A program made the position numbers and the translations under genes. Below, piece by piece: positions 22,760 through 55,480 of a DNA stretch of 64,000 nt. How positions within the stretch are numbered: the first letter of the stretch is position 1; the number at the start of each line of letters is the position of its first letter. The stretch lies in NCBI RefSeq assembly GCF_016903815.1, contig NZ_CP069974.1. One strand, written 5' to 3'. The notes under the pieces were generated by a model, which worked only from the letters and a program-made list of their open reading frames with translations, made no database searches and had not been told where the DNA came from. The stretch comes from Escherichia coli (lineage in GTDB: Bacteria > Pseudomonadota > Gammaproteobacteria > Enterobacterales > Enterobacteriaceae).

Positions 22760-23100
22760 TATACCTCTTTATTTTCTTATCGCATCAAATTTATTTCACA
22801 TATAAAAAAAAGACAATTCATCGATGAATCGAATCGTGACGCAAGTTACGAAAATTACGATTCATGCAGCAAATCACATCACGAATTGAATCTAGAGTCA
22901 ATTCGCTTTAACTCGTTGTTTTATTATTACTGATTCATCTATGAGTTGTGTTAAATTCATTGGTGAATCATATGCGATTCACCAATGAATCCTTTTTATA
23001 ATGTAAAATAAATTAAAATACATTATTTAAAACATAAGTTAATGATTCAAGTAGCAAATCAGCAAAAACTTGTTTTTGCGTAGTGTGTGGTGCTTTTGGT
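22760..23100. promoter_or_regulatory. oriT: oriT (F/R100-type) with TraM/TraY/IHF site region and nic site near 23088/23089
   Basis: TTTGCGTAGTGTGT/GGTGCTTTTGGTGGTGAGAACCACCAACCTGTTGAGCC matches recalled F-type nick region; upstream CGATTCAC-type repeats (TraM sites). Confidence 0.8.
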
Positions 23101-28477: not shown

Positions 28478-28636
28478 CTACTTACCGGATTCGTAAGCCA
28501 TGAAAGCCGCCACCTCTCTGTGTCCGTCTCTGTAACGAATCTCGCACAGCGATTTTCGTGTCAGATAAGTGAATATCAACAGTGTGAGACACACGATCAA
28601 CACACACCAGACAAGGGAACTTCGTGGTAGTTTCAT
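28478..28636 (-). CDS. hok: Hok-family membrane toxin (hok/sok or flm type I toxin-antitoxin)
   Basis: 52 aa [52 protein letters not shown]. Confidence 0.9.
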
Positions 28637-28742
28637 GGCCTTCTTCTCCTTGCGCAAAGCGCGGTAAGAGGCTATCCTGATGTGGACTAGACATAGGGAT
28701 GCCTCGTGGTGGTTAATGTACTGACCCCAAAAAGTTGGACAG

Positions 28743-29594
28743 TTAAACACGAGGCATATAGGTCTGATTCCGATATTCAATTGGAGTCAGACCTTTTAAT
28801 TTCAGGCTAATTCTTCTGCTGTTGTAGTATTCAATATATTCCGTAACAGCATCCTTCAGTTCGCTTATATTACTGAACTCATCAAGATAAAAACACTCCG
28901 ACTTTAAGGTTCCAAAGAAACACTCCACCACAGCATTATCCAGACAATTGCCTTTTCTGGACATGCTTTGTTTAATACCATGTTCTTTAAGGATATTTTG
29001 ATATCTTCTCATACGATACTGCCATCCCTGGTCAGAGTGCAGAACAGGATGCTCGTGAGGATTAAGCTTTTTGAATGCCTGATCGAGCATATTCTCAACC
29101 ATGTTCATCACTGGTCTTTCCGAAAGGCTGTAAGAAATAACTTCGTTGTTGAAGAGATCTATTACTGGAGACAAATACAGCTTGCGCCCATTGACTGCAA
29201 ATTCAGTAACATCGGTAACCCACTTCTCGTTTGGCCGCGTAGCCTTGAAATCTCTTTGGAGAACATTAGGGGCGGTTTGCCCTACCTCTCCTCTGTAAGA
29301 GCGGTATCGCTTGACCTTAATCGCTGCTTTAAGTGAGAGGGTTCCCATCAGGCGCTGAACAGCTTTATGGTTAATCTGTTTCCCTTCTCGATGAAGAGAC
29401 AGCGTTACCCTACGGTATCCGTATCGGCCTCTATTCTCGTGATAAATCTCACTAATACGCTTTTTAACGTCCGCATACTTGTCAGGCTTGCTGAGAGCCT
29501 TTAGATGATAATAAAACGTACTGCGCGGTATCTCCGCAGCCCTGAGAAGCTCATCAAGAGGATAAAACTGCCTTAGCTCGTTGAGTACTTTCAC
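28743..29594 (-). CDS. insK: IS150 OrfB (DDE catalytic domain)
   Basis: 283-aa ORF. Confidence 0.8.
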
Positions 29595-30112
29595 TTTTTC
29601 GTGGGATGAGCTAAGGCTTTCAGCTTTTTTAGATACATAAGCCGCGTTTCAAGAAATCGAACTTGCCTTTCAAGATCCTCAATGCGTCGGTCTTTTGACA
29701 GCTCCAATGCTGATGCCGCTTTTTCTGGATCAACTGATATTGCAATGTTTCTTTTGGTGCCAATCTTGAGCGCGCGTAAACCAGCTTCTCCGCGCTCTTC
29801 ATAGACCTTCAGCCACCTGGCTACAGAACCACTACCAGCAAGCATAAAGTGAGCAGCAGCCTGATTAAGGGACATGTGCTGCTCGATCACAGCTTTCACG
29901 ACCTTAATACGCAACTCTGGATCAGCACTAACGCCTTTAGGTTTGGGAATTAAACCTTTTTCTCCATGTTTTTCATAGAGGGCAACCCATGTCCTGACCT
30001 GGGTTCGGGGGACACCAAAACGTGCCGAGATGATCCTGTAACCATCATCAGTTGTGAAGTAGTGATTCACGACTTCAAGGCGCTTTTCAAAAGGGTATTT
30101 TGGCTTTGACAT
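29591..30112 (-). CDS. insJ: IS150 OrfA (HTH)
   Basis: 173-aa ORF. Confidence 0.8.
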   Translation of the reverse strand: MSKPKYPFEKRLEVVNHYFTTDDGYRIISARFGVPRTQVRTWVALYEKHGEKGLIPKPKGVSADPELRIKVVKAVIEQHMSLNQAAAHFMLAGSGSVARWLKVYEERGEAGLRALKIGTKRNIAISVDPEKAASALELSKDRRIEDLERQVRFLETRLMYLKKLKALAHPTKK

Positions 30113-33500: not shown

Positions 33501-36997
<3,497 letters not shown>

Positions 36998-37039: not shown

Positions 37040-39991
37040 TTGAGTTTCGGGAGCCGCGGTTTTGACGTTTTGCGGGGACCTGCCTTTTGTTCCCTCCGGT
37101 ATTCACCATCACCTTTTTGAGAACCTTCGCCGCATGGGGCATCACTGCCACGGACGGAAACGACTGTCCGGGGGCAGACCGCAAAAGTTTTTGCCTGCTT
37201 CTGGGCAAAAAGTTTTGCGGGATGTGCATTTCACCCCTGGACTGGCGGAGACGGTTGTGGCTGTCTTTGCCCCCGGCGACAGGGGCTTAAACAGGTGAAT
37301 GGCACCGGACAGAACAACGGGCAGGGACCCGCCGCAACGACGTGAAGCGCGGTTTGCGAAACGGCGTTGCCCCTTACATCCCGGCGGTCTTTTGCCGGGA
37401 TGCCAGGAGCGCAGGCCACGGCGCGACAGAGGCGGCGCGACCGGAACGGTCGCTGCAAGCCAGGGGTTTTCACGCATCGGACCGTAGCGACAGCCCGAAA
37501 CCGCGCCAGCGGGTTCGGCGGAGACTGGCAGGTGCGCCAGCAGCTGCCTGTCGGAGTCGGGCCTGACGACCGGATGCCGCCAGGCAGCCGGGAGCCGAAG
37601 GTGCGCGTGCGACAGGAAGTCGCTTAACGTATTGTTTTACATTGATAAAACCAGCTATCCCATTAGCTGTAGCCTACCGGGACAGGCGTTGCCGGCAACG
37701 GCGGGGTCTGAAGCTCCCGGGACAACGAGAGCCGGGCGTCAGCCCGGGTAATGCCCCGTGAGGGGCTTTACCTTGCTGCAAGCATCATGCGGCAGGAGAG
37801 CAAGGCTGGTCAGAAGGGTTAACACATGTGAACTGTTGATAAACACCGTTATCGGCAACAGGCCAAAGATGCTGACAGGCCTGAACCAAAAGGTACGGGG
37901 TCCGGTTGCTACCTCGCGCACAGGGAGCACATGGGCGCAGAGACCCCCGGTGAAGAGACAGAACCCGCCCTGACCCTCTGTATGTTAAGCGGAACCTGGT
38001 AAACCCGTATCGCTGCCTCACAGGCAGGTGAACCGCAAGGAACACTGTTAGCGGTGCGGGCATAGGAGGACGGAAAAAGCGAATGCCCGGCTGTAATAAC
38101 CGGGATACGGGGCAGGTTCCCCGACGCGAAAGCGGGCAGACTTCCGTCTGGTCTTTAATTGCATGAAAAGCTGTAAAGCAGTCAAAAGGATATCAGCGAG
38201 ATGAATACACACATCAGTGTGTCCACGATACCCCACCCGACAGGCTGGCACACCATAAACTGGAAAGCATGCCATGCCCGGGTGCGAAAGCTACAGTTAC
38301 GGATTGCAAAGGCAACCCGACAGCAACAATGGCGGCAGGTCAGAGAACTACAGCGCATCCTCACCCGCTCATTCTCCGGCAAAGCCGTGGCTGTCAGGCG
38401 TGTAACTGAAAATACCGGTAAAAGGACACCCGGTATTGACGGAAAAATATGGCACACACCGAAGGAGAAATGGGAAGGAATATGCAGCCTGAATCTGTGT
38501 GGTTACAGGCCACAGCCACTACGGCGAATACATATCCCAAAATCAAACGGCAAAACGCGACCGCTGGGCATACCCACAATGAGGGACCGGGCCATGCAGG
38601 CACTGTGGCTGCTGGCTCTGGAACCCGTATCCGAGACCACTGCTGACCATAACAGCTATGGTTTCAGACCAATGCGCAGCACGCATGACGCCATTGAGTC
38701 CATTTTTCTGCGGATGAGCCAGAAAGTATCGCCCAAATGGATACTGGAGGGCGATATTAAAGGGTGCTTCGATAACATCAGCCATGACTGGCTGCTTTCC
38801 CATATTCCGATGGACAGGAGACTGCTTAAAAAATGGTTGAAAGCAGGTTACATGGAAAGAGGCGTGTTTAACCATACGAACAGCGGGACACCGCAGGGAG
38901 GCATCATATCCCCTGTTCTCGCCAACATGGCTCTGGACGGACTGGAGAAGGAACTGATGCAAACGTTCAGGAAAAGTGGTTATCACAGTGCAAAGCACCA
39001 GGTGAATTATGTGAGATATGCTGATGATTTCATCTGTTCAGGCAGCTCCCGTGAATTGCTGGAAAATGAGGTCAGACCACTGATTGCAGCTTTCATGCGC
39101 GAACGAGGGCTGGAACTGTCGGAAGAAAAAACAGCGATCACACATATAGATAAAGGCTTCGACTTTTTAGGGCAGAACGTCAGGAAGTACAACGGTAAAA
39201 TGCTGATTAAACCGTCGAAGAAAAACCTGAAGAACTTCCTCTGTAAAGTCAGAGAAATAATTAAACGCAATCCGACGCTCCCGGCATGGAAACTGATAGG
39301 CCAGCTAAACCCGGTGATCCGGGGATGGGCTACCTATCACCGACACGTCGTGGCGAAAGAAACATTTAATTATGTCGACACCCAAATCTGGCGAGCTATA
39401 TGGCGATGGTGTGTAAGACGGCATCCCCGGAAAGGATTGCGGTGGATCGCCGGACGATACTTCTCCTTTGAAGGCAGGCGCTGGATCTTTAAAGCCATAA
39501 CCCCGGAAGGGAAAATTCTGACACTCTTCCGGGCAATGGAAACACCGATAAAGCGCCATATAAAAATCAAAGGCGAAGCAACACCATACACCCCCGGAAT
39601 GGAAATCTACTTTGAACGTCGTCTGGATCTAATCTGGAAAGGCAAATCAAAGAAGATGAAGACAGTAGTTCAACTCTGGAAGAGGCAGGGGAAACACTGT
39701 CCGCAGTGCGGACAACTCATAACCAACCAGACCGGATGGAATATACATCACCGGATCAGGAAAGTTATGGGCGGCAGTGACGAACTGACCAATCTCGAGT
39801 TGTTACATCCGAACTGCCACCGACAGTTACACAGCAGGGAAGCCGGTGCTCACCGAAAGCACTTATAAAGGCTTGAGCGGAGTGCGGGGAAACTCGCACG
39901 CTCCGTTCTTAGGGGGCGGCGGCGCAGCAATGTGCCGCTGCTACCCGACCCGGCAGACAGGACAACACTGCAGTAGTCAGAATCAGAGCAG
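37040..39991 (+). mobile_element. Group II intron, copy B (identical protein to copy A)
   Basis: Same offsets as copy A (+11785); immediately upstream of and divergent from ssb. Confidence 0.75.
38201..39868 (+). CDS. Group II intron RT/maturase/HNH (copy B)
   Basis: 555 aa, identical to copy A. Confidence 0.9.
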   Translation: MNTHISVSTIPHPTGWHTINWKACHARVRKLQLRIAKATRQQQWRQVRELQRILTRSFSGKAVAVRRVTENTGKRTPGIDGKIWHTPKEKWEGICSLNLCGYRPQPLRRIHIPKSNGKTRPLGIPTMRDRAMQALWLLALEPVSETTADHNSYGFRPMRSTHDAIESIFLRMSQKVSPKWILEGDIKGCFDNISHDWLLSHIPMDRRLLKKWLKAGYMERGVFNHTNSGTPQGGIISPVLANMALDGLEKELMQTFRKSGYHSAKHQVNYVRYADDFICSGSSRELLENEVRPLIAAFMRERGLELSEEKTAITHIDKGFDFLGQNVRKYNGKMLIKPSKKNLKNFLCKVREIIKRNPTLPAWKLIGQLNPVIRGWATYHRHVVAKETFNYVDTQIWRAIWRWCVRRHPRKGLRWIAGRYFSFEGRRWIFKAITPEGKILTLFRAMETPIKRHIKIKGEATPYTPGMEIYFERRLDLIWKGKSKKMKTVVQLWKRQGKHCPQCGQLITNQTGWNIHHRIRKVMGGSDELTNLELLHPNCHRQLHSREAGAHRKHL

Positions 39992-40220: not shown

Positions 40221-40784
40221 TCAGGCACGCAGACGAATAATCATCGTCGGGACATCGGTATAAGCAAACGTGCCGCGCGGCAGCTCCTCGCGGACGTCAG
40301 AAAACGGTAACAGCTTCTCCTGCTGGCGTGGTCCGTTGAGACAGACGGCGACCAGCACGCCACCCGGACGCAACAGGGAAAAGGCCCGCAGGATATGCCG
40401 GATATCCTGCCCGTGGCTGAACGGCGGATTCATGATAACCCGGCTGTAATACTGCACCGGCAGCCATTCCATGAAGTCGCCACACTGAACCCTGACACCG
40501 TTAAAATTTTCCCGCAGATACCGGACCAGCCCGCTGTTGATTTCCACCGCATCACACATGGCCCCCGGCGCGGTATCCCGAATCGCCCGCAGTATGGCCC
40601 CGGTGCCGGCAGAGGGTTCCAGAATGTGATCACGGTTGCTGATCTCCGCCAGCATCACCAGGCGATCACAGACCGGGGCAGGAGTCACAAAAAGCTGAGA
40701 TTCAGCCCGGATTTCAGCAACCGGCGCGGCGTTATCCAGCCTTGCGCGCATCAGCCGGATACGTTCTCTTAACTGACTGTGCAT
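40221..40784 (-). CDS. SAM-dependent methyltransferase (amino-methyltransferase motifs EPSAGTG and NPPF); probable orphan DNA methyltransferase
   Basis: 187-aa ORF with motif I and motif IV. Confidence 0.7.
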   Translation of the reverse strand: MHSQLRERIRLMRARLDNAAPVAEIRAESQLFVTPAPVCDRLVMLAEISNRDHILEPSAGTGAILRAIRDTAPGAMCDAVEINSGLVRYLRENFNGVRVQCGDFMEWLPVQYYSRVIMNPPFSHGQDIRHILRAFSLLRPGGVLVAVCLNGPRQQEKLLPFSDVREELPRGTFAYTDVPTMIIRLRA

Positions 40785-40831: not shown

Positions 40832-42193
40832 TTATTTCTGTGGGATTTCCGTGATTTTCATGTCGGAGATATACACATTCACCAGGCGGAAATTATTGTC
40901 CATTGTGCGGCGGTACCGGTATGCCCCGTGGTCTTCTGCTTCTGCCACACTGCGCACGGCCTTACAGTCCCGGGGCAGGGCGGCCCACTGTGCCTTTGTC
41001 ATTTCCCGGAAACCTTCCCCCGGATAGTTGACTACCGGCGGACGCTTCGCGGCCTGACTGGCGACGGCAGCCTCTTCTGCCGATGGTGCTTTGTAGTCCG
41101 TGATGCGATCGGGCGTCACTTTCATCGTGCCGCTGTACCCGAGAAAACTGTAATTTGGCGTTGTGACTGAACTCACCGCCCCGTTGCTTTTGTTCACACG
41201 GATGATGGTCAGCCACTCGCCCCGGCTGAAAACCTGTCCGCCCGGCTCAAAATCCTGTGTCCGGGTAACCACGCCGCCGCTTTCGTCCAGCATGGCACGC
41301 TCATAGATCAGGCGGTTCTGATAGTGGTTAACCCAGCGTTGTTGATGCTGAATCTGCCGTTCATGACAGCGGATCGCAATTTCGCGGGCCTGCTCCGTGG
41401 TGATGATGTCATCATCCAGGGCCGACCATAACGATCGACTTCCTTCATACTGGCTTTTTTCTGCCGGGCGCGGATACGTATCCAGCGGGAAACAGGCGCT
41501 GATATGGTCATGACTGCTGATGAGTTTTGCCATATTCAGATCCAGCGATTCAGCCCGCCACATCGTCAGATATTTCTGCGACTGCGCGATGGTCTTTTCA
41601 GCCTTGCGCAAATCAGCTTCGATTTTTTTGATACGACGCCAGCGAACGTCCGGACGTTCTTTATACTTCGCGTGAAGCAGTGCCGACCGCGCCCGCTCTT
41701 CCCAGTATTCCGCACGTTCAAAGAGCATCACGGCTCGTTTCATGCCGTTTTCAATACGCTGCGCATCACGACGGGCGCGGCGTTCGCTGTGATGCCCCAC
41801 AAGAATGGGCTGACCGGGCGGGATCATCGCGGCCAGTCTTTCCACTTCATCAAGTGCCTGTGCGGATTCACTGGCCCGCTTTCCGCTGTATCCGGTAAAC
41901 CGCTCCGCCCGTGCTTCCTGACGTTCAGCGAGCGTGCTGTCTTCATCCTCAATCTCTCCGGCAAGTGAGAGGAGCACGTCTTCCCGGCCCGGTGTCCAGG
42001 CTGGCGCGACAAACAGCGCCTGTTTTGGTGCCCAGCGGAAACCGGCATCATGCACTTTTTTATACGTCTCCGGGTCAAGACGTGACACGGCATACAGGCG
42101 CAGTTTGTTGTCATCCGGTGAGTAGGTCGCGCGGTACATCTGCACAGGGCTGGCGGCTTCCGGGGCGGTCATGGTGATTGCTGCTAATGTCAT
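40832..42193 (-). CDS. Conserved leading-region protein of unknown function (453 aa)
   Basis: Long ORF with good coding character; family not verified. Confidence 0.6.
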   Translation of the reverse strand: MTLAAITMTAPEAASPVQMYRATYSPDDNKLRLYAVSRLDPETYKKVHDAGFRWAPKQALFVAPAWTPGREDVLLSLAGEIEDEDSTLAERQEARAERFTGYSGKRASESAQALDEVERLAAMIPPGQPILVGHHSERRARRDAQRIENGMKRAVMLFERAEYWEERARSALLHAKYKERPDVRWRRIKKIEADLRKAEKTIAQSQKYLTMWRAESLDLNMAKLISSHDHISACFPLDTYPRPAEKSQYEGSRSLWSALDDDIITTEQAREIAIRCHERQIQHQQRWVNHYQNRLIYERAMLDESGGVVTRTQDFEPGGQVFSRGEWLTIIRVNKSNGAVSSVTTPNYSFLGYSGTMKVTPDRITDYKAPSAEEAAVASQAAKRPPVVNYPGEGFREMTKAQWAALPRDCKAVRSVAEAEDHGAYRYRRTMDNNFRLVNVYISDMKITEIPQK

Positions 42194-42244: not shown

Positions 42245-42475
42245 TCAGTTAAAAGCGCGTTTCAGTTCGAGTGTGCGGAGCACCTGCCCGAAGGCCGTGT
42301 TTTTCATGGCGGGGATGTGTACACCACGCCCCCGGTGAAAACTCCGGGCAATGTGTCGCCCGAAGGCTTTCAGCACGGGGTCAATTTCCGGCGCGGGGAT
42401 GTCTTCGCGTCTGAAACGGGGATGACGGCGGGGCTTTACAGCCGCTGCGGAAGGTGAAACAATACTTACTGTCAT
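42245..42475 (-). CDS. Small hypothetical protein
   Basis: 76-aa ORF upstream of the 453-aa gene. Confidence 0.3.
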   Translation of the reverse strand: MTVSIVSPSAAAVKPRRHPRFRREDIPAPEIDPVLKAFGRHIARSFHRGRGVHIPAMKNTAFGQVLRTLELKRAFN

Positions 42476-42713
42476 AATTTAGCCTCTTATGACGTTAATT
42501 AATGAAACCGTAAAGACTGTTCGTGCAGTCTCTGCGGTGTGGATTAAGCAGGTCCCTGACCTGCTTTTTTCATATCTGCGTCTGACGTTCTCCGGTGTTT
42601 TCCTCCTTCTGTTCCTGCGTTCTCATTACCTGCCAGCCGGATGACTGACAGAACACATAAATGCGTATTGCCGGAGCCTGAAATAAATCCTGATTTTTAA
42701 AGAACATCACCCG

Positions 42714-45662
42714 TTGAGTTTCGGGAGCCGCGGTTTTGACGTTTCGCGGGAACCTGCTGCTGTATACCCTGTGGTATGAACTTCACCCGTTTGAGAACCT
42801 TCGCCGCAAGGGGCATCACTGCCACGGCCTGACGCACCTGTCCTGGGCAGAACGCAAAATTTTTTACCGGGTTTTGGGTAAAAAATTTTGTGGGCTGTTC
42901 ATTTACCCTGGACAGTCAGTGCGGCAGGTTGTGGCTGTATCAGCCCCAGGCGACAGGGACTCATACGGGTGTGTGGCACCGGCAGGCAATGAGCAGGGAC
43001 CCGCCGCAACGACGGAGAGCGCGTGCGCGAAACGGCGTTGCCCCTTACATCCCGGCGGCCTTTTGCCGGGATGCCGGGAGCGCAGGCCACGGCGCGACAA
43101 GGGTGGCGCGACCGGAACGGTCGCTGCAAGCCCGGGGTTTTCACGCATCGGACCGTAGCGACAGCCCGAAACCGCGCCAGCGGGTTCGGCGGAGACTGGC
43201 GGGTGCGCCAGCAGCTGCCTGTCGGAGTCGGGCCTGACGACCGGATGCCGCCAGGCAGCCGGGAGCCGAAGGTGCGCGTGCGACAGGAAGTCGCTTAACG
43301 TATTGTTTTACATTGATAAAACCAGCTATCCCATTAGCTGTAGCCTACCGGGACAGGCGTTGCCGGCAACGGCGGGGTCTGAAGCTCCCGGGACAACGAG
43401 AGCCGGGCGTCAGCCCGGGTAATGCCCCGTGAGGGGCTTTACCTTGCTGCAAGCATCATGCGGCAGGAGAGCAAGGCTGGTCAGAAGGGTTAACACATGT
43501 GAACTGTTGATAAACACCGTTATCGGCAACAGGCCAAAGATGCTGACAGGCCTGAACCAAAAGGTACGGGGTCCGGTTGCTACCTCGCGCACAGGGAGCA
43601 CATGGGCGCAGAGACCCCCGGTGAAGAGACAGAACCCGCCCTGACCCTCTGTATGTTAAGCGGAACCTGGTAAACCCGTATCGCTGCCTCACAGGCAGGT
43701 GAACCGCAAGGAACACTGTTAGCGGTGCGGGCATAGGAGGACGGAAAAAGCGAATGCCCGGCTGTAATAACCGGGATACGGGGCAGGTTCCCCGACGCGA
43801 AAGCGGGCAGACTTCCGTCTGGTCTTTAATTGCATGAAAAGCTGTAAAGCAGTCAAAAGGATATCAGCGAGATGAATACACACATCAGTGTGTCCACGAT
43901 ACCCCACCCGACAGGCTGGCACACCATAAACTGGAAAGCATGCCATGCCCGGGTGCGAAAGCTACAGTTACGGATTGCAAAGGCAACCCGACAGCAACAA
44001 TGGCGGCAGGTCAGAGAACTACAGCGCATCCTCACCCGCTCATTCTCCGGCAAAGCCGTGGCTGTCAGGCGTGTAACTGAAAATACCGGTAAAAGGACAC
44101 CCGGTATTGACGGAAAAATATGGCACACACCGAAGGAGAAATGGGAAGGAATATGCAGCCTGAATCTGTGTGGTTACAGGCCACAGCCACTACGGCGAAT
44201 ACATATCCCAAAATCAAACGGCAAAACGCGACCGCTGGGCATACCCACAATGAGGGACCGGGCCATGCAGGCACTGTGGCTGCTGGCTCTGGAACCCGTA
44301 TCCGAGACCACTGCTGACCATAACAGCTATGGTTTCAGACCAATGCGCAGCACGCATGACGCCATTGAGTCCATTTTTCTGCGGATGAGCCAGAAAGTAT
44401 CGCCCAAATGGATACTGGAGGGCGATATTAAAGGGTGCTTCGATAACATCAGCCATGACTGGCTGCTTTCCCATATTCCGATGGACAGGAGACTGCTTAA
44501 AAAATGGTTGAAAGCAGGTTACATGGAAAGAGGCGTGTTTAACCATACGAACAGCGGGACACCGCAGGAAGGCATCATATCCCCTGTTCTCGCCAACATG
44601 GCTCTGGACGGACTGGAGAAGGAACTGATGCAAACGTTCAGGAAAAGTGGTTATCACAGTGCAAAGCACCAGGTGAATTATGTGAGATATGCTGATGATT
44701 TCATCTGTTCAGGCAGCTCCCGTGAATTGCTGGAAAATGAGGTCAGACCACTGATTGCAGCTTTCATGCGCGAACGAGGGCTGGAACTGTCGGAAGAAAA
44801 AACAGCGATCACACATATAGATAAAGGCTTCGACTTTTTAGGGCAGAACGTCAGGAAGTACAACGGTAAAATGCTGATTAAACCGTCGAAGAAAAACCTG
44901 AAGAACTTCCTCTGTAAAGTCAGAGAAATAATTAAACGCAATCCGACGCTCCCGGCATGGAAACTGATAGGCCAGCTAAACCCGGTGATCCGGGGATGGG
45001 CTACCTATCACCGACACGTCGTGGCGAAAGAAACATTTAATTATGTCGACACCCAAATCTGGCGAGCTATATGGCGATGGTGTGTAAGACGGCATCCCCG
45101 GAAAGGATTGCGGTGGATCGCCGGACGATACTTCTCCTTTGAAGGCAGGCGCTGGATCTTTAAAGCCATAACCCCGGAAGGGAAAATTCTGACACTCTTC
45201 CGGGCAATGGAAACACCGATAAAGCGCCATATAAAAATCAAAGGCGAAGCAACACCATACACCCCCGGAATGGAAATCTACTTTGAACGTCGTCTGGATC
45301 TAATCTGGAAAGGCAAATCAAAGAAGATGAAGACAGTAGTTCAACTCTGGAAGAGGCAGGGGAAACACTGTCCGCAGTGCGGACAACTCATAACCAACCA
45401 GACCGGATGGAATATACATCACCGGATCAGGAAAGTTATGGGCGGCAGTGACGAACTGACCAATCTCGAGTTGTTACATCCGAACTGCCACCGACAGTTA
45501 CACAGCAGGGAAGCCGGTGCTCACCGAAAGCACTTATAAAGGCTTGAGCGGAGTGCGGGGAAACTCGCACGCTCCGTTCTTAGGGGGCGGCGGCGCAGCA
45601 ATGTGCCGCTGCTACCCGACCCGGCAGACAGAACAACACTGCAGTAGTCAGAATCAGAGCAG
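42714..45662 (+). mobile_element. Group II intron, copy C (diverged 5' ~330 nt, 1 aa difference in protein)
   Basis: Same architecture; protein differs Q->E in GTPQ(G/E)GIISP. Confidence 0.75.
43872..45539 (+). CDS. Group II intron RT/maturase/HNH (copy C)
   Basis: 555 aa. Confidence 0.9.
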   Translation: MNTHISVSTIPHPTGWHTINWKACHARVRKLQLRIAKATRQQQWRQVRELQRILTRSFSGKAVAVRRVTENTGKRTPGIDGKIWHTPKEKWEGICSLNLCGYRPQPLRRIHIPKSNGKTRPLGIPTMRDRAMQALWLLALEPVSETTADHNSYGFRPMRSTHDAIESIFLRMSQKVSPKWILEGDIKGCFDNISHDWLLSHIPMDRRLLKKWLKAGYMERGVFNHTNSGTPQEGIISPVLANMALDGLEKELMQTFRKSGYHSAKHQVNYVRYADDFICSGSSRELLENEVRPLIAAFMRERGLELSEEKTAITHIDKGFDFLGQNVRKYNGKMLIKPSKKNLKNFLCKVREIIKRNPTLPAWKLIGQLNPVIRGWATYHRHVVAKETFNYVDTQIWRAIWRWCVRRHPRKGLRWIAGRYFSFEGRRWIFKAITPEGKILTLFRAMETPIKRHIKIKGEATPYTPGMEIYFERRLDLIWKGKSKKMKTVVQLWKRQGKHCPQCGQLITNQTGWNIHHRIRKVMGGSDELTNLELLHPNCHRQLHSREAGAHRKHL

Positions 45663-46040
45663 CAGATAAAGGAACAACAACATCAGGAACAGTTCCATAA
45701 CATAAGAAAGAAACACTCCTGAGTCAGACACATCACAGACGGGAAGGGTAACGGGCGACGCGCCAGCGTGGCCCGCTTCCCTTCCGGCAGGCGTCAGCCT
45801 GCCAGGGGTTTTCGCGCGGACTGACAGGCGGCCTCCACCGCCTGCCCCTGTATCACCTGTTTCTGCTACCCTGTAAGATGTAGTGACCGCCCAGGAAAAC
45901 CGCCTGCTGATTCGCCACAAAATCGCAGATTTCATCAACAATCTGCGCGGTGGTGAGCGGTTTCTGCCCCATTTCACGACGCCGCGCATTAATCACGGCC
46001 CTGTAATTACGCAGAATTTCGCGGGTTTCTGTGCTGATAT

Positions 46041-46463
46041 TCATGACATCGTCTCCCCGTCCAGCGCCTGTAACACAACGTCCATTGCTTCGCGTTCCTC
46101 CCTGACGAATGCGTCACCGTCGCCCCCGTTCTCACTCCCGACGGCATACAGGCGCTTCATTTCACTGCCTGCCAGCGCCATCACTTTTTCCAGCATCACC
46201 GCCGGGACTGTCACCTGACGGCTGGCGCGCTTTTCTTCCATCAGTTCACGAACAACGCCGTGAACAACGCTGACATCCGCACCATATTCAAAGGCATCGT
46301 CCAGCCGCTGCATGACGGTTTCCAGCTCATCGTCTGTCAGACTCCAGTCCTGGGCTATGTGACGCACATCCCCACGGGTCAGCACTACGGCAAAAACGCA
46401 TTCACTGTCCGGCACGTCTGTATCCAGCACTTCGCGGATAATTTCTTTAACAGTACAGTACAT
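46041..46463 (-). CDS. Small acidic leading-region protein (paralog of 48179..48613)
   Basis: 140-aa ORF; shares ...RQVTVPA... block with the 144-aa ORF. Confidence 0.55.
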   Translation of the reverse strand: MYCTVKEIIREVLDTDVPDSECVFAVVLTRGDVRHIAQDWSLTDDELETVMQRLDDAFEYGADVSVVHGVVRELMEEKRASRQVTVPAVMLEKVMALAGSEMKRLYAVGSENGGDGDAFVREEREAMDVVLQALDGETMS

Positions 46464-46509
46464 GTTCTCGTCTCCTTTACAGGGGCGGCATTGCCGCCCC
46501 GTCCGTTAA

Positions 46510-46935
46510 TCAGTCCAGAGCCGCGTAAATCGCGTTGCATTCGGGGTGAAATTCGATGTGACGCCACAACTGCGCATCGCGCATCCGGTAAAGCTGGGTC
46601 AGTCCTGCATCCCCGCTGTCGTGGTACAGCCACAACTGGCGGTTAATCACAAGGGAGGTCAGGATGATGCCTGCGGCATCAGCACTCACGGTACGGTCAA
46701 ACCAGTTTGCACCGTTCACCATGTGGAAACGGTCGCCATCCGGCATCATGTAACCGCCACCGTCCGGCAGGCGGATGAAGTGCCAGAAGCCTCCCTGATA
46801 TTCCGGCATCATTTTTTGCGCCAGCGCGTACACATACGCCTCGGCATACAGAAAATCGTTGCCAAACAGATACGGCAGAAAGGAGAGACGGTCGCACTCT
46901 TCAACATTCAGAGTGACAGGTTTCGCATATTGCAT
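46510..46935 (-). CDS. klcA: ArdB/KlcA-family antirestriction protein
   Basis: 141-aa ORF, family recognised by recall. Confidence 0.7.
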
Positions 46936-47351
46936 GATGTTTTCCTCCGTTGTTCACATATTCCGCGACACCGGGCGGTGCCGTGCCTCCATAAAAGCCG
47001 GGCGAACAGGCGGGGATGCAGGGGCGCAAGGGAAGCCGCAGCCTGACGCACACGGCTGACGGGAGTTGCAGGGTGAGACCGCGAAATCTGAGCGGGTGAA
47101 CGACCGGAAAATCACGGCAGACGGGAAGGAGGGACCGGGTGACCGCAGCGGCGAAGCGTACCCTTGCATCAACGCCAGCCCGGCTAAGATGGAGGCACGG
47201 CACAGCCCGCACACGACGCTGAGGCCACATAACTGAAAAACCACAAGGCCATGCCCTGCATGGCCGGGTAAAGCGGAGCCGGCGGCGACTTCCTTTGTGC
47301 TCTGTCCGGGGACCGGCAGGAAAAAGGCGGGGATTTACCCCGCCAGTGTCA

Positions 47352-48179
47352 TCATTTCCGGATTTTTGCCAGGGCATCCGCCATGCTGCGGATTTCGGTC
47401 CGGGCTTCCCGGACCACCTCCCGCAGAACACCACGGTCAAACCAGCGGCGGGGCGGTTCATCCGGTATACGCAGCACATCGCAGGCCAGCCCACTGGACA
47501 GGATATGCTCAATACACTCACTGACCAGATACATTTCCACCGACGAAAAACGTGCTCCCCGGTTCACGATGGCATCGAGCACCACGGGCAGGTTTTCGTC
47601 ATCTTCATCGAGCCAGCAGGGGTGATCGCTTTCCTTCACGACCAGGCGAAAGCGGCGCGTCTGGCGGGTCAGCAACGTCTGACCGGTGGTGGTCAGCGCC
47701 GCACGGATACGCCGCGCATCTTCTGCCACCTGGTAACAGATGCTTCGTACCGCATCGTGCACCGCATCAAGAACAGCCCTGATTTCGTCTTCGGTCAGCC
47801 ATTCTCCGGCATACGGGAAAGACACCTGCGTTCCGTCTGCCGGAAGTACCGGCAGCGACTGCCACTGACTGCCGGACAGTACCAGTTCCGCCCCGGTTCC
47901 GGTCAGTCTCTGAATGGCGGAGGCCAGGAGCGGCGGCAGTACGCCGCCGTGACGGTTGATAAGTAACGTCGCCAGCCGGGGCGCATCCAGCCGCACGTAA
48001 ATGCTGATCCAGCCCGGATAGTTCGGATTTCGCTGGTCAACATCCGTCTCTTCCGGCCAGCCCTGCGCCAGCAGCAGGTTACGGGCGTGACGACAAATCA
48101 GTGCGTTCAGCGTGCTGTTTTCGTTCATGATTAAGCGTTCTCCCTGTATCGCCGCCCGCAGGGCAGGCGGCGATAACAT
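47352..48179 (-). CDS. Conserved leading-region protein of unknown function (275 aa)
   Basis: ORF with coding character; stop overlaps next gene start. Confidence 0.55.
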
Positions 48180-48613
48180 CAGTTGTTTTCGTGTGTGTTG
48201 TTTTTCAGCAGGGTGCGGGCCTGATTAACCACCGCCTGACGGCGGGTAACGCATTCCGGGACGGCGAGGCCGTTATCACGGGCGGCCCACTCACGTTTCC
48301 ACAGTGCCTGTTCAGCGGTCTGAATCAGGGACGCCAGCAGTTCAGCAGGGACGGTCACCTGGCGGTTTTCGCTCACGTTGCTGATAATCTCCATCACCGC
48401 GGCGGAAGAAATACCGGATTCAGTCCGCTGGTCTTCCGGGATGTCCTCCATGCGCGCCAGGACGGTCCTGATTTCATGATCGGTCAGAGAAATTTCCATA
48501 CCGTCAGCCAGTGCCTGAATCTCTTCCGGGGACCAGATAACCAGCATCAGCGGCGCGTCTCCCGGATACTTTGCTGCCAGCTCCCGGCATAGCGTTTCGC
48601 ATGTTCCGTACAT
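48179..48613 (-). CDS. Small acidic leading-region protein (paralog of 46041..46463)
   Basis: 144-aa ORF. Confidence 0.55.
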
Positions 48614-48848
48614 TCTCGTCTCCTTCTCAATCTTTGAAGCAGGAATCCAGTTCCAGAATTTCGGTATACGCCTCCATAAACAGGCGATTGGCGCGATACA
48701 GCGTCTGGCGTGTCAGGCGTTCAACAAGCACATCGGAATCAAAGCGACAGCGATGCTCCATATCGTTCAGCCTGGCCCGAAGGTCACACATGGTGTTGGC
48801 CACCTCCGCCACGTCGGCGCGAAGTTTTTCGTGTCCGGCATAGTTCAT

Positions 48849-49532
48849 TTACGCAGCCTCCGGCATAAACCAGTCATCATTCGCGGCCCCCTGCTGCATG
48901 GCCCGTTGCACGGCGGCAAGGCGTTGCTGCCCGGCACGGTGATACTGCTCAAGCAGCTCGATACCGATATACCGGCGTCCGGACTGGAGGGCGGCGACGC
49001 AGGTTGAGCCGCTGCCTGCAAACGGGTCCAGCACAATTGCGTTCGGGTGTGTGAAGCTCTCAATCAGCGGTTGCAGGCTGGTAACGGGCTTTTCCGTCGG
49101 GTGATGACGATTGCCAGAATATTTCCAGCCCAGCACGTCCGGCAGCGGGTTTTGTGGCAGACGTGGACGGCCTTTTGCCAGGATGTAGGCGCATTCGTGG
49201 CGATAGCCCACATATGCGGCCTTCGATGTGTAGTTTTTGGTGAAGACCAGGTGACCAACAACGCTGAATCCCGCATTTTTCCAGGCGGCCATAAAGCGAT
49301 CGACGCGGTTCCAGCCGTAGAAGCTCACCATCAGCGCGTCTTTTTTGAGTACGCGGTACATTTCATTACAGGCCGGTTGCAGCCATTCATCGGTTTTATC
49401 GCCGGCGATGGTGCGCCCGGAACGGTCACGAAAACCGACGAGATATGGCGGGTCAGTTAATATGAAATCAATGGCGTTATCAGGGATACGCGTCATAACA
49501 TCGATGCAGTTACCAAGGACAAAACGGGACAT
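48849..49532 (-). CDS. DNA methyltransferase (N6-adenine/N4-cytosine type, DPPY motif), orphan
   Basis: 227 aa with ILTDPPY and FAGSGST motifs. Confidence 0.8.
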   Translation of the reverse strand: MSRFVLGNCIDVMTRIPDNAIDFILTDPPYLVGFRDRSGRTIAGDKTDEWLQPACNEMYRVLKKDALMVSFYGWNRVDRFMAAWKNAGFSVVGHLVFTKNYTSKAAYVGYRHECAYILAKGRPRLPQNPLPDVLGWKYSGNRHHPTEKPVTSLQPLIESFTHPNAIVLDPFAGSGSTCVAALQSGRRYIGIELLEQYHRAGQQRLAAVQRAMQQGAANDDWFMPEAA

Positions 49533-49916
49533 AACAACGCTCCTTCTCTTACAGAGGGCACCGGGAGGGCCCCCCTGTGGTGCCCGTTCCCCGCTGCCTG
49601 TGGGCTGTTCACCGCGTCCGGTAACGGGTCAGGCCGACCGTGGAATATCGCAGCCGTCGTCTTTTTGACGGCGAGAATATGCCGCGAAAGCGGCTTGAAG
49701 GGCGTTCATCAGAAAAGGGCGACAGGCTGGCGTACACTGTCACCGGTGCCAGCCGGGAGCAGTAAAAGCGCCCGTCCCGTGCCCGCCGGACGCGGGACAC
49801 TGACCACAGGCAGCGTTCCTGCCGCGCCGCGTCAGCCGGCGCAGTAAAAAGAGGAGCACGGCGACATCCTTTGTCGGAAAAGAAACGGGCGGTTGCCCGC
49901 CCGTCTCCGTCATACT

Positions 49917-50888
49917 TCATCCCCCGTAATGCGCCACCTTGTCGACTATCCACTCCGGCGCGGTGACTTCCGGCAGCTCATCATCATCTGTCGGGGAAGA
50001 CCATTCCAGTTCCCCCCACAGCACATCAACAAGCTCTCCACGCTCATATCGCTGCCAGCCACAGAAATTGCAGCCCTGTTCGGCGTACCAGTGCTCCAGC
50101 GTGCAGCCGAAACGGCGGCTTAATTCTGCAACAACGTTGCTTTCCGGCTGACACCACGGCGTGTCGAAATCCACTTGAATGAAGTTTTCTCCCTGACGGC
50201 TGATATTCACCTCATACCCCACAGGCCACTTCACGCCATACTGTTCCGTATACCAGTGATACGCAGAAGGAACACCGTTCAGAACACCACCGTTAAAGCC
50301 ATTCACTTCAACATCCAGGCGGGTGGGCAGAACCGTCAGCAGGTCAAACGGCATGGTTTTTTCCGGCAGTACATTGTCACACAGACGGTTCCACCACACC
50401 GATACATCCTCGTTACTCCAGAAGCCACACCAGTCACCTCTTTTTGCGGTGAAATGCACGGTGATGGTTTCCCTGACCTCATCCGGTAATCCTTCCCAGC
50501 GACGCTGGCCAGTACCACTCTGCAGCCAGAGTTCATGCAGCATCAGGCAGTTTTGCTCATCCAGCAGTACACCGTTCTGCAGGTGTGTCAGCCAGCGGGT
50601 GAACGCGATATTCTCCGGCGATACAACACCACGTCCGGCATCCGTCAGTCCGGGGCACGGTTCAAACTGCACATCTTCAGTGGTCTGCAGAAGTCCGGCA
50701 CTTCCGGCCAGAAACAGCTGAATACCTTCATTTGTGGCGCGGCGATAAAGCGGTGTGACGGCACCGCTGGCCAGTCGTTTAATCTCAGCAATCTGTGCCG
50801 GTTCACCAGAAAAATGCATACGATTCGAGCACCAGTTTGGCATGGGAATTCTCCTCTCACATGCGGCCTCCATCAGGCCGTGCCGCAC
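49917..50888 (-). CDS. Conserved leading-region protein of unknown function (323 aa)
   Basis: Long ORF; alternative start MPNWCSNRMHF. Confidence 0.55.
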   Translation of the reverse strand: MRHGLMEAACERRIPMPNWCSNRMHFSGEPAQIAEIKRLASGAVTPLYRRATNEGIQLFLAGSAGLLQTTEDVQFEPCPGLTDAGRGVVSPENIAFTRWLTHLQNGVLLDEQNCLMLHELWLQSGTGQRRWEGLPDEVRETITVHFTAKRGDWCGFWSNEDVSVWWNRLCDNVLPEKTMPFDLLTVLPTRLDVEVNGFNGGVLNGVPSAYHWYTEQYGVKWPVGYEVNISRQGENFIQVDFDTPWCQPESNVVAELSRRFGCTLEHWYAEQGCNFCGWQRYERGELVDVLWGELEWSSPTDDDELPEVTAPEWIVDKVAHYGG

Positions 50889-51209
50889 CTGTAACCGGGC
50901 GACCGCATACGAATGCAGGTGCGGCCCCGAAGCCGCAGCGCGTGGAGGAGGAACGACGAAACGTGACCGGGTGAGGAGGCCGGCGACAGCGACACACTTG
51001 CATCGGATGCAGCCCGGTTAACGTGCCGGCACGGCCTGGGTAACCAGGTATTTTGTCCACATAACCGTGCGCAAAATGTTGTGGATAAGCAGGACACAGC
51101 AGCAATCCACAGCAGGCATACAACCGCACACCGAGGTTACTCCGTTCTACAGGTTACGACGACATGTCAATACTTGCCCTTGACAGGCATTGATGGAATC
51201 GTAGTCTCA

Positions 51210-51600
51210 CGCTGATAGTCTGATCGACAATACAAGTGGGACCGTGGTCCCAGACCGATAATCAGACCGACAACACGAGTGGGATCGTGGTCCCAGACTA
51301 ATAATCAGACCGACGATACGAGTGGGACCGTGGTCCCAGACTAATAATCAGACCGACGATACGAGTGGGACCGTGGTCCCAGACTAATAATCAGACCGAC
51401 GATACGAGTGGGACCATGGTCCCAGACTAATAATCAGACCGACGATACGAGTGGGACCATGGTCCCAGACTAATAATCAGACCGACGATACGAGTGGGAC
51501 CGTGGTCCCAGACTAATAATCAGACCGACGATACGAGTGGGACCGTGGTCCCAGTCTGATTATCAGACCGACGATACAAGTGGAACAGTGGGCCCAGAGA
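51210..51600. repeat. sopC: sopC centromere: 43-bp direct repeats each with TGGGACCGTGGTCCCA inverted motif (8 good units plus 1 degenerate)
   Basis: Period 43 bp from 51236; downstream of sopB. Confidence 0.9.
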
Positions 51601-51685
51601 GAATATTCAGGCCAGTTATGCTTTCTGGCCTGTAACAAAGGACATTAAGTAAAGACAGATAAACGTAGACTAAAACGTGGTCGCA

Positions 51686-52657
51686 TCAGGGTGCTGGCTT
51701 TTCAAGTTCCTTAAGAATGGCCTCAATTTTCTCTATACACTCAGTTGGAACACGAGACCTGTCCAGGTTAAGCACCATTTTATCGCCCTTATACAATACT
51801 GTCGCTCCAGGAGCAAACTGATGTCGTGAGCTTAAACTAGTTCTTGATGCAGATGACGTTTTAAGCACAGAAGTTAAAAGAGTGATAACTTCTTCAGCTT
51901 CAAATATCACCCCAGCTTTTTTCTGCTCATGAAGGTTAGATGCCTGCTGCTTAAGTAATTCCTCTTTATCTGTAAAGGCTTTTTGAAGTGCATCACCTGA
52001 CCGGGCAGATAGTTCACCGGGGTGAGAAAAAAGAGCAACAACTGATTTAGGCAATTTGGCTGTGTTGATACAGCGGGTAATAATCTTACGTGAAATATTT
52101 TCCGCATCAGCCAGCGCAGAAATATTTCCAGCAAATTCATTCTGCAATCGGCTTGCATAACGCTGACCACGTTCATAAGCACTTGTTGGGCGATAATCGT
52201 TACCCAATCTGGATAATGCAGCCATCTGCTCATCATCCAGCTCGCCAACCAGAACACGATAATCACTTTCGGTAAGTGCAGCAGCTTTACGACGGCGACT
52301 CCCATCGGCAATTTCTATGACACCAGATACTCTTCGACCGAACGCCGGTGTCTGTTGACCAGTCAGTAGAAAAGAAGGGATGAGATCATCCAGTGAGTCC
52401 TCAGTAAGCAGCTCCTGGTCACGTTCATTACCTGACCATACCCGAGAGGTCTTCTCAACACTATCACCCCGGAGCACTTCAAGAGTAAACTTCACATCCC
52501 GACCACATACAGGCAAAGTAATGGCATTACCGCGAGCCATTACTCCTACGCGCGCAATTAACGAATCCACCATCGGGGCAGCTGGTGTCGATAACGAAGT
52601 ATCTCCAACCGGTTGAGTATTGAGCGTATGTTTTGGAATAACAGGCGCACGCTTCAT
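51686..52657 (-). CDS. sopB: SopB (ParB partition protein)
   Basis: 323-aa ORF. Confidence 0.9.

Positions 52658-54410: not shown

Positions 54411-55480
<1,070 letters not shown>

What the first reader, a model, noticed from the sequence alone, without database searches (positions are those of the whole stretch)
45850..50900. Leading-region cluster of antirestriction gene, two orphan methyltransferases and several unassigned conserved ORFs as anti-defence candidates
ArdB/KlcA (46510..46935) and a DPPY-motif DNA methyltransferase (48849..49532) are interleaved with ORFs of 140, 275, 144, 73 and 323 aa that I cannot assign. A further NPPF-motif methyltransferase sits at 40221..40784, and psiB/ssb lie nearby. 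All are co-oriented for early entry into the recipient. The unassigned genes, including the 140/144-aa paralog pair, are plausible anti-restriction or anti-defence factors.
Basis: inference. Interest (0 to 1): 0.45.

Follow-up and report, generated by a model that had tools for sequence, protein, structure and literature searches.

The report
Known plasmid leading-region anti-restriction operons
This 5-kb stretch is the well-studied first-entering region of F-like and IncI1 resistance plasmids: two operons carrying a DNA methylase and a KlcA anti-restriction protein, plus six conserved genes of unknown function, so the finding is accurate but not new.

Summary
All the ORFs exist on the minus strand. 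KlcA/ArdB, the DPPY methyltransferase, the NPPF methyltransferase, psiB and ssb are confirmed, and the 140/144-aa pair are DUF1380 paralogs. Two ORFs are over-extended: 275 aa is really 258 aa, and 323 aa is really 308 aa.

The block is ordinary. It is 100% identical in hundreds of plasmids and present in at least 5000 PLSDB records. It is 94% identical, gene for gene, to plasmid F and to IncI1 pESBL.

In pESBL the methylase is M.EcoGIX, shown experimentally to protect the entering plasmid from restriction. The M.EcoGIX and klcA operons are reported to be induced on entry from single-stranded-DNA promoters. Both hairpins are present here. For the klcA one I found covariation (17 of 51 pairs compensatory).

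The six unassigned genes are real (dN/dS 0.05-0.32) and non-essential by TnSeq in pESBL. Samuel et al. 2024 already list them as uncharacterised leading-region families. YchA gives a confident model with no known fold match. Its distant homologues always sit just upstream of klcA or ardA.

An anti-defence role for these six genes is plausible, already proposed in print, and untested.

The parts
45853..46044 (-). 63-aa basic protein (pESBL Hp13). Last gene of the klcA operon; its start overlaps the DUF1380a stop by 4 nt.
   Evidence: ORF. 98% aa identity to pESBL and F. dN/dS 0.05-0.11. GGGGAGA Shine-Dalgarno, pI 9.8. No family hit.
46041..46463 (-). DUF1380 paralog a, 140 aa (pESBL Hp12; probably the family named YubJ/YcjA). 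Very acidic.
   Evidence: PF07128 at 23.7 bits, below the 26-bit cutoff. phrog_9024 E 8e-6. Aligns over its full length with the 144-aa paralog. pI 4.3, net charge -16. dN/dS 0.20-0.29.
46510..46935 (-). KlcA/ArdB anti-restriction protein (F YfgB)
   Evidence: PF03230 E 1.5e-26. PDB 2KMG KlcA E 1.8e-18 and 2WJ9 ArdB E 3e-7. 100% identical to pESBL KlcA and 97.9% to F.
46972..47209 (+). Class 2 single-stranded-DNA promoter hairpin (F 'ssp2'), on the transferred plus strand. It would drive klcA transcription leftwards. The right arm carries TTGCAT (47164-47169), 15 nt, then TAAGAT (47185-47190).
   Evidence: ssDNA fold dG -103 kcal/mol, z -4.4. 95% identical to the pESBL elements 5' of klcA and of ardA. 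Covariation across 9 distinct sequences: 96% of cells paired versus 34-38% when slid, 17/51 compensatory pairs, 0/500 shuffles. TTG and TAnnnT are invariant. Promoter and roadblock function in F and pESBL: PMC12672017 and bioRxiv 10.64898/2026.01.09.698686.
47352..48128 (-). YchA-like protein, 258 aa (pESBL Hp11). Last gene of the methylase operon.
48179..48613 (-). DUF1380 paralog b, 144 aa (pESBL Hp10; the family named YcgB)
   Evidence: PF07128 E 5.5e-53. dN/dS 0.31. The AF2 model has only pLDDT 55.
48627..48848 (-). 73-aa protein (pESBL Hp9). It starts immediately after the methylase stop codon.
   Evidence: phrog_4830 E 1e-36. 96% identical to F and 77% to pESBL. dN/dS 0.14-0.21. Fusions with DUF1380 carry the precomputed family PF27407.
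48849..49532 (-). Orphan beta-class N6-adenine DNA methyltransferase, orthologue of M.EcoGIX (F YfeA)
   Evidence: PF01555 E 1.9e-40 and NF010253 at 501 bits. PADLOC MTase_II at 477 bits. DPPY lies N-terminal and FAGSGS C-terminal. 95.2% aa identity to the pESBL gene at 54782-55465, which is M.EcoGIX.
49592..49815 (+). Class 3 single-stranded-DNA promoter hairpin (probably F 'ssp3') on the transferred strand, upstream of the methylase
   Evidence: ssDNA fold of 49533-49916: dG -106.5, z -6.0. Strongest peak in a 300-nt sliding scan. Within the 94% identical block shared with pESBL and F. Promoter activity and transcription start mapped in pESBL (PMC12672017). The RefSeq ORF here shows no third-position bias, 6/3/4.
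49917..50843 (-). DUF1281 / Api92-like protein, 308 aa (pESBL Hp8, F YfdA). Acidic. It lies upstream of the class 3 promoter, so it is not in the methylase operon.
   Evidence: PF06924 E 6.7e-49 plus PF18406. PDB 2IJR Api92 E 1.8e-50. phrog_37043 aligns from residue 16. dN/dS 0.21. Frameshifted in F.
50892..51020 (+). Short hairpin upstream of DUF1281 that resembles the right arm of the class 2 element. Status uncertain.
   Evidence: Fold. 74% identity over 73 nt to 47133-47201, E 9e-4. The wider region folds weakly, z -2.1.
40221..40784 (-). Second orphan methyltransferase (NPPF motif), in a separate upstream operon with DUF3560 (40832-42193) and a 76-aa ORF (42245-42475)
   Evidence: PF05175 and other class I SAM MTase hits, below the Pfam cutoffs or only marginally above them. 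PADLOC Mad2 E 6e-21 and MTase_II E 1e-9. PHROG MTase domains of giant phage and plasmid proteins, E 1e-31.
23080..23096 (+). oriT nic-site motif that defines the plus strand as the transferred strand
   Evidence: 2 mismatches to the F nic sequence, located between traM and the SLT gene. Gene order matches F.

Best explanation
The region is the oriT-distal end of the conserved leading region shared by F-like and IncI1 plasmids. It contains two transcription units that are read from the incoming single strand before it is converted to duplex DNA.

Unit 1: a roughly 225-nt hairpin on the transferred strand (49592-49815, 'class 3') rebuilds a promoter. That promoter drives the M.EcoGIX-type methylase, then the 73-aa protein, DUF1380b and YchA.

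Unit 2: a roughly 240-nt hairpin (46972-47209, 'class 2', ssp2 in F) drives klcA/ardB, then DUF1380a and the 63-aa protein.

How the known parts work: the methylase puts m6A on the entering strand with little sequence specificity, which blunts type II restriction. KlcA counters type I restriction. In F the class 2 hairpin also stalls complementary-strand synthesis and so prolongs this burst of expression.

The unassigned proteins are made in the same burst. They are most likely establishment factors acting in the first minutes in the recipient, and anti-defence is the leading candidate role. DUF1281 lies upstream of unit 1 and its expression mode is unresolved.

Shown here: identity of the parts, orientation, hairpins, covariation, synteny and purifying selection. 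Taken from the literature on 94-100% identical orthologues: promoter activity, induction on entry and anti-restriction phenotypes. Inferred: the roles of the six unassigned genes.
For: - 94.4% identity over 5350 bp to pESBL and 93.7% over 6093 bp to F, gene for gene.
- M.EcoGIX lies at pESBL 54782-55465, and the orthologue here is 95% identical.
- The M.EcoGIX knockout and oriT-inversion experiments are in PMC4288162 and PMC7736820.
- RNA-seq and 5' RACE for the klcA and M.EcoGIX operons, with class 2 and 3 promoters conserved in F, are in PMC12672017.
- ssp2 drives yfgB and acts as a roadblock. Its deletion lowers transfer 21-fold or more into wild E. coli, 36-fold against EcoGIII and 5-fold against EcoKI.
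- The two intergenic regions are the strongest ssDNA folds in a 300-nt scan of 45600-51700, with z -4.4 and -6.0.
- The class 2 stem shows covariation and has G:T pairs that form only on the transferred strand.
- The nic site and gene order fix the orientation.
- Tight gene spacing, one overlap and a Shine-Dalgarno sequence before seven of the eight genes (the 308-aa DUF1281 start was read from the ORF only) fit operons.
- dN/dS is 0.00-0.32 for all eight ORFs.
- YchA keeps its position next to klcA or ardA at 24-30% identity.
Against: - No experiment was done on this plasmid. Promoter use and phenotypes are transferred from orthologues.
- The class 3 hairpin has no covariation support, because only three near-identical sequences were available.
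- The -35/-10 match in the class 2 arm is weak by consensus: 5 mismatches and a 15-nt spacer.
- The unassigned proteins have no similarity to any known anti-defence protein.
- klcA/ardB deletions had no detectable effect in some other plasmids (PMC11602122).
- In this plasmid four group II introns and an IS150 push the region to 23-28 kb from nic, so it enters later than in F.
Confidence: 0.85

Rival explanations
1. The unassigned genes (the DUF1380 pair, YchA, the 73-aa and 63-aa proteins, DUF1281) are early establishment factors that act on host physiology or on plasmid DNA processing. Possible targets are transcription reprogramming, SOS or ssDNA handling, and strand conversion. On this view they do not inhibit defence systems.
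For: - YfjB/HerB is another conserved leading-region protein of previously unknown function that is induced on entry. It proved to be a ParB-like reprogrammer of host transcription that offsets acquisition cost (PMC13370423).
- psiB and ssb in the same region also act on host responses rather than on a dedicated defence system.
- None of the six matches a known anti-defence family.
Against: - They are co-transcribed with two anti-restriction genes.
- Across distant plasmids YchA is always adjacent to klcA or ardA.
- DUF1380a (net charge -16) and DUF1281 (net about -21 to -23 for the 323- and 300-aa forms tested) are strongly acidic, as DNA-mimic anti-restriction proteins are, but that is a weak indicator.
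Confidence: 0.3
2. The small co-transcribed proteins are partners or modulators of the neighbouring anti-restriction enzyme. DUF1380b and the 73-aa protein would act with the methylase, and DUF1380a and the 63-aa protein with KlcA. They would not be independent effectors.
For: - One DUF1380 paralog follows each anti-restriction gene in each operon.
- The junctions are overlapping or abutting.
[quoted passage not shown] M.EcoGIX is proposed to work with DNA polymerase I (PMC7736820). Both reports leave room for cofactors.
Against: - Distant plasmids keep YchA with klcA or ardA but have no methylase gene and no recognisable DUF1380 gene.
- Literature knowledge, not tested here: IncP KlcA acts when expressed alone.
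- The 156-aa protein in the DUF1380b slot shares only a possible 50-aa module (hhalign probability 37%).
Confidence: 0.15
3. The unassigned ORFs are maintenance or housekeeping genes, or decaying or mis-called ORFs with no role on entry.
For: DUF1281 is frameshifted in the F reference sequence. One RefSeq ORF in the region (49609-49920) does look spurious.
Against: - The pESBL orthologues scored 1.00 non-essential for maintenance.
- All eight ORFs show purifying selection and, where checked, Shine-Dalgarno sequences.
- They are conserved in at least 5000 plasmids and are among the largest leading-region-enriched families.
Confidence: 0.04

Closest known systems
pESBL (IncI1, NC_018659.1) leading-region block Hp8 - M.EcoGIX - Hp9 - Hp10 - YchA/Hp11 - KlcA - Hp12 - Hp13, with its class 3 and class 2 ssDNA promoters
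   Same: Same eight genes in the same order. 94.4% nucleotide identity over 5350 bp, KlcA 100%, methylase 95%. Both promoter hairpins are present.
   Different: The replicon and transfer system differ: IncF here, IncI1/MOBP there. The 73-aa protein is only 77% identical. Here an extra Frpo-driven operon (DUF3560 plus the NPPF methylase) and group II introns lie between this block and ssb.
Plasmid F (NC_002483.1) yfdA-yfeA-...-yfgB region with ssp2 and ssp3
   Same: 93.7% identity over 6093 bp. It lies next to sopABC in the same way. KlcA (YfgB) is 98% identical and the methylase (YfeA) 94%.
   Different: F has a frameshifted DUF1281 gene. F lacks the DUF3560/NPPF-methylase operon and the introns, so the block lies much closer to nic in F.
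Leading-region 'anti-defence islands' (Samuel et al., Nature 2024)
   Same: By their listed names and their order from oriT, each gene here appears to fall in one of their largest leading-region-enriched families: 8 (MTase), 9 (KlcA), 7 and 14 (DUF1380), 10 (YchA), 11 (73 aa) and 27 (DUF1281). All are on the strand that can be transcribed from the incoming ssDNA.
   Different: That study lists the unassigned families as uncharacterised and does not test them. No anti-CRISPR is seen in this block.
ArdA and Frpo/ssi class 1 units of ColIb-P9 and F
   Same: The same logic applies: a hairpin promoter on the transferred strand gives a transient burst of an anti-restriction or anti-SOS protein.
   Different: Class 2 and 3 hairpins share no sequence with Frpo/ssi. 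KlcA is not a DNA mimic like ArdA (literature knowledge).

Membership tests
KlcA/ArdB anti-restriction family (PF03230) | Sequence membership above the curated threshold, and similarity to the solved KlcA and ArdB structures | tested here: met
   92.8 bits against a 25-bit cutoff. 2KMG E 1.8e-18 and 2WJ9 E 3e-7, both near full length.
KlcA/ArdB anti-restriction family (PF03230) | Alleviation of type I restriction in vivo | not testable with these tools
   Only by transfer from orthologues: 98% identical to F YfgB, whose promoter deletion lowers transfer 5-fold against EcoKI.
M.EcoGIX-type orphan beta-class N6-adenine DNA methyltransferase | Beta-class motif order: catalytic DPPY N-terminal to the SAM-binding FxGxG | tested here: met
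   DPPY lies near the N-terminus and DPFAGSGST in the C-terminal third of the 227-aa protein (sequence). PF01555 covers residues 21-201.
M.EcoGIX-type orphan beta-class N6-adenine DNA methyltransferase | Orthology to M.EcoGIX | tested here: met
   95.2% aa identity over all 227 residues to pESBL 54782-55465, in the same synteny. NF010253 at 501 bits.
M.EcoGIX-type orphan beta-class N6-adenine DNA methyltransferase | No cognate restriction endonuclease gene adjacent | tested here: met
   The neighbours are the 73-aa ORF and the promoter hairpin.
M.EcoGIX-type orphan beta-class N6-adenine DNA methyltransferase | Single-strand-specific, low-specificity m6A activity that protects during entry | not testable with these tools
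   Shown for M.EcoGIX only (PMC7736820, PMC4288162).
Class 2 ssDNA promoter (ssp2; klcA/ardA type) | Long conserved stem-loop on the transferred strand, directly upstream of klcA or ardA | tested here: met
   z -4.4. 17/51 compensatory pairs, 96% paired, 0/500 shuffles, slid controls 34-38%. 95% identical to both pESBL copies.
Class 2 ssDNA promoter (ssp2; klcA/ardA type) | -35 and -10 boxes rebuilt in the stem, and a transcription start at its base | tested here: inconclusive
   TTGCAT, 15 nt, TAAGAT in the right arm. TTG and TAnnnT are invariant in 10 sequences, and the interior of the -10 lies in an internal loop. The consensus match is weak. The transcription start cannot be tested here.
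Class 3 ssDNA promoter (M.EcoGIX type) | Homology to the pESBL element with a mapped start site, and a stable ssDNA fold | tested here: met
   Lies within the 94% identical block. dG -106.5, z -6.0.
Class 3 ssDNA promoter (M.EcoGIX type) | Structure maintained by compensatory change | tested here: inconclusive
   Only three sequences at about 95% identity, with 0 compensatory changes. The distant search saturated with records at 90% identity or more.
Known anti-defence proteins (for the six unassigned ORFs) | Sequence or fold similarity to a characterised anti-restriction, anti-CRISPR or other anti-defence protein | tested here: not met
DUF1380 (PF07128), for the 140/144-aa pair | Pfam membership of both proteins | tested here: inconclusive
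   The 144-aa protein scores 179 bits and is a clear member. The 140-aa protein scores 23.7 bits, below the 26-bit cutoff, but aligns over its full length with shared MYxT and RQVTVPA motifs.

The most novel reading that the evidence does not exclude
At least one of the unassigned proteins made on entry is a new kind of anti-defence effector carried by thousands of resistance plasmids. The best candidates are YchA, which has a confident model with no known fold relative and stays next to klcA or ardA at 24% identity, and the acidic DUF1380 pair. One testable idea is that they neutralise modification-dependent (type IV) or type I restriction that the non-specific m6A methylase cannot handle or may even provoke.
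Probability: 0.35. Interest if true: 0.55.

Novelty: already known. Interest (0 to 1): 0.2.

Why it matters
This block sits on a large share of the IncF and IncI1 plasmids that spread ESBL and other resistance genes in E. coli, Klebsiella, Salmonella and Shigella. Its known parts help plasmids enter restricting hosts.

The open question is what the six conserved, co-expressed proteins of unknown function do. That question is already recognised in the field. Answering it needs genetics, not more sequence analysis.

- covariation support for the class 2 hairpin;
- a confident YchA model with no fold relative in PDB or BFVD;
- conserved YchA-klcA/ardA synteny in distant plasmids.

Tried and rejected
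- **DUF1380b structure.** The model reached only pLDDT 55 from a shallow alignment, so no fold search was run on it. A profile search with both paralogs did not surface more diverse members in the listed hits.
- **PDB sequence searches.** Nothing for YchA or DUF1380b.
- **Class 3 hairpin covariation.** The three-sequence comparison was uninformative.
- **Promoter consensus scan.** No site with 4 or fewer mismatches in the three intergenic regions.
- **Is the 156-aa protein in the DUF1380b slot of distant plasmids a DUF1380 member?** hhalign probability 1.2% with one sequence and 37% with three, so unresolved.
- **The RefSeq hypothetical ORF at 49609-49920.** Rejected as a gene: no codon-position bias, and it lies inside the hairpin.
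- **Are the unassigned ORFs defence genes?** Considered and rejected: no PADLOC hits.

Full report
**What is there.** The window comes from an E. coli multi-replicon IncF plasmid and is nearly identical to NZ_CP020496.1. Between 45850 and 50900 all real genes lie on the minus strand. In order of transcription they are:
- DUF1281/Api92-like, 49917-50843, 308 aa;
- a 384-nt gap;
- a DPPY N6-adenine DNA methyltransferase, 48849-49532;
- a 73-aa ORF, 48627-48848;
- DUF1380b, 48179-48613, 144 aa;
- a YchA-like protein, 47352-48128, 258 aa;
- a 416-nt gap;
- KlcA/ArdB, 46510-46935;
- DUF1380a, 46041-46463, 140 aa;
- a 63-aa ORF, 45853-46044.

Family assignments come from Pfam, NCBIfam, PHROGs, PADLOC and PDB sequence searches. 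Homologues and profiles start at Met18 and Met16 respectively. A Shine-Dalgarno sequence precedes the Met18 start, and one is visible in the ORF sequence before Met16. All eight ORFs are under purifying selection against their pESBL and F orthologues, with dN/dS 0.00-0.32, including the two small ones. The 140/144-aa pair are true paralogs.

**Orientation.** A nic-site match (GTAGTGTGT|GGTGCTTT), of the type I recall for R100, lies on the plus strand at 23080-23096, between traM (22373-22756) and the SLT gene. The gene order from there is DUF932, hok, psiA, psiB, ParB-like, DUF905, ssb, as in F. The plus strand is therefore the transferred strand. It enters 5' to 3' from about 23090 upwards and is the template for every minus-strand gene. 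The block ends at sopC/sopBA, so it is the oriT-distal end of the leading region.

**How common it is.** Identity is 99% or more in 690 of them, across Escherichia, Klebsiella, Salmonella and Shigella. It is 94.4% identical over 5350 bp to the IncI1 plasmid pESBL (NC_018659.1) and 93.7% identical over 6093 bp to F, gene for gene.

**What is already known about it.**
- *The methylase.* In pESBL it is M.EcoGIX (54782-55465), and the protein here is 95% identical. Deleting M.EcoGIX lowers transfer up to about 1000-fold into recipients carrying EcoGIII or EcoRI. Inverting oriT abolishes the protection. The conclusion drawn was that the enzyme is expressed from, and acts on, the entering single strand (PMC4288162, PMC7736820).
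- *Induction on entry.* Donor-depleted RNA-seq and 5' RACE showed that the klcA and M.EcoGIX operons of pESBL are strongly induced on entry. They are driven by new 'class 2' promoters (upstream of klcA and of ardA) and a 'class 3' promoter (upstream of M.EcoGIX), both single-stranded-DNA promoters, and both conserved in F (PMC12672017).
- *ssp2 in F.* In F the class 2 element (ssp2) drives yfgB, the KlcA gene. It also blocks complementary-strand synthesis. Its deletion lowers transfer 21-fold or more into wild E. coli, 36-fold against EcoGIII and 5-fold against EcoKI (bioRxiv 10.64898/2026.01.09.698686).
- *The unassigned families.* By name and by order from oriT, Samuel et al. 2024 appear to list each gene here among the largest leading-region-enriched families, and mark the unassigned ones 'Uncharacterized'.
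- *Essentiality.* pESBL TnSeq scored all eight orthologues 1.00 'non-essential' for maintenance and for transfer to K-12.

**What I could add.**
1. *Strongest folds.* The two intergenic gaps give the strongest ssDNA folds on the transferred strand in a 300-nt scan of 45600-51700: dG -103 with z -4.4, and dG -106.5 with z -6.0.
2. *Class 2 hairpin covariation.* I aligned the class 2 element with its copies in pESBL (two), F and five metagenomic or genomic plasmid contigs that carry distant YchA homologues. The stem-loop is conserved: 96% of cells pair, against 34-38% when partners are slid. 17 of 51 pairs show compensatory changes, and 0 of 500 shuffles reach that. Several pairs are G:T on the transferred strand and would be C:A on the complement, so the transferred strand is the one that folds. 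In the right arm TTG and TAnnnT are invariant, and the interior of the -10 lies in an internal loop. By consensus the boxes are weak: TTGCAT, 15 nt, TAAGAT.
3. *Class 3 hairpin.* It has no covariation evidence, because only near-identical copies could be retrieved.
4. *A probable annotation error.* The RefSeq 'hypothetical protein' at 49609-49920 lies inside the class 3 hairpin. Its substitutions fall 6/3/4 by codon position, against 8/6/35 for the methylase. It is probably not a gene.
5. *YchA.* The model is confident (pLDDT 90.9, pTM 0.84). It has two alpha/beta halves and no significant match in PDB or BFVD. The family is narrow, with 181 representatives among 1.84 billion proteins. Homologues at 24-30% identity always lie just upstream of klcA or ardA, often with DUF1281 further upstream, in plasmids that have no methylase gene and no recognisable DUF1380 gene.
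6. *Charge.* DUF1380a (pI 4.3, net -16) and DUF1281 (net about -21 to -23) are strongly acidic. That is only a weak hint of DNA mimicry.
7. *The NPPF methyltransferase.* It hits Mad2 and type II DNA methylase models, and the methylase domains of giant phage and plasmid proteins. A DNA substrate is therefore plausible but not shown. It sits in a separate Frpo-type operon with DUF3560.

**Interpretation.** The architecture and the roles of the methylase and KlcA are well supported, although the functional evidence is transferred from 94-100% identical orthologues. For the six unassigned genes the evidence is contextual only: same operons, same burst of expression, conserved synteny, enrichment in leading regions, and dispensability in the laboratory. 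That fits anti-defence. It equally fits other early establishment roles, and YfjB/HerB is a recent example of a leading-region protein that reprograms the host rather than blocking a defence. I put about 0.35-0.4 on at least one of them being a true anti-defence effector.

**Verdict.** The finding restates a hypothesis already in the literature about one of the most common and best-studied plasmid regions. Novelty: already known. Interest is low (0.2). What remains of interest is the unknown biochemistry of YchA, DUF1380 and DUF1281.

Noticed in passing
window 33800-36997 (minus strand): The plasmid ssb gene is split by a 2661-bp group II intron in the same orientation. Exon 1 (aa 1-13) is at 36997-36959, exon 2 (aa 14-179, 97% identical to F Ssb) is at 34297-33800, and the intron is 34298-36958 with a 633-aa ltrA. 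RefSeq annotates only a truncated ssb. ssb is the first gene of the Frpo2-driven operon that is induced on entry, so the intron would be transcribed in a burst in each new host.
   Followed up: partly
window about 25822-28163, about 37607-39948, and 43278-45619 (plus strand): Three near-identical copies of another group II intron (2342 bp, 555-aa ltrA with an HNH domain, Rfam group-II-D1D4-7). Each sits at the same position just 3' of one of three Frpo/ssi-like repeats, in the sense of the transferred strand. The exact empty site is seen in NZ_CP023816.1 (L001 position 19771). The exon-intron junction occurs in at least 1010 PLSDB records, so this homing site is common.
   Followed up: partly
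window 49609-49920 (minus strand): The RefSeq 'hypothetical protein' ORF (103 aa) lies inside the class 3 ssDNA promoter hairpin. It shows no third-codon-position bias against pESBL (6/3/4) and is probably an annotation artefact.
   Followed up: yes
window 50892-51020: A short hairpin upstream of DUF1281 shares 74% identity over 73 nt with the -35/-10 arm of the class 2 promoter (TTGCAT...TAACGT). It may be a fourth, degenerate ssDNA promoter. The papers I read do not say whether DUF1281 is induced on entry.
   Followed up: partly
L006 6443-6913; L008 3608-4078: In distant plasmids a conserved 156-aa protein occupies the DUF1380b slot upstream of YchA. It shares a possible 50-residue module with the DUF1380 N-terminus (hhalign probability 37%).
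   Followed up: partly
window 42470-42569 (plus strand): Rfam match to AS-pc01 (antisense RNA to pHK01_035, 98.9 bits), next to the 76-aa ORF at the head of the DUF3560/NPPF-methylase operon.
   Followed up: no
window 28478-30112: Overlapping minus-strand ORFs at the position where near-identical plasmids annotate an IS150 element. It lies between the hok/flm region and psiA and lengthens the leading region further.
   Followed up: no
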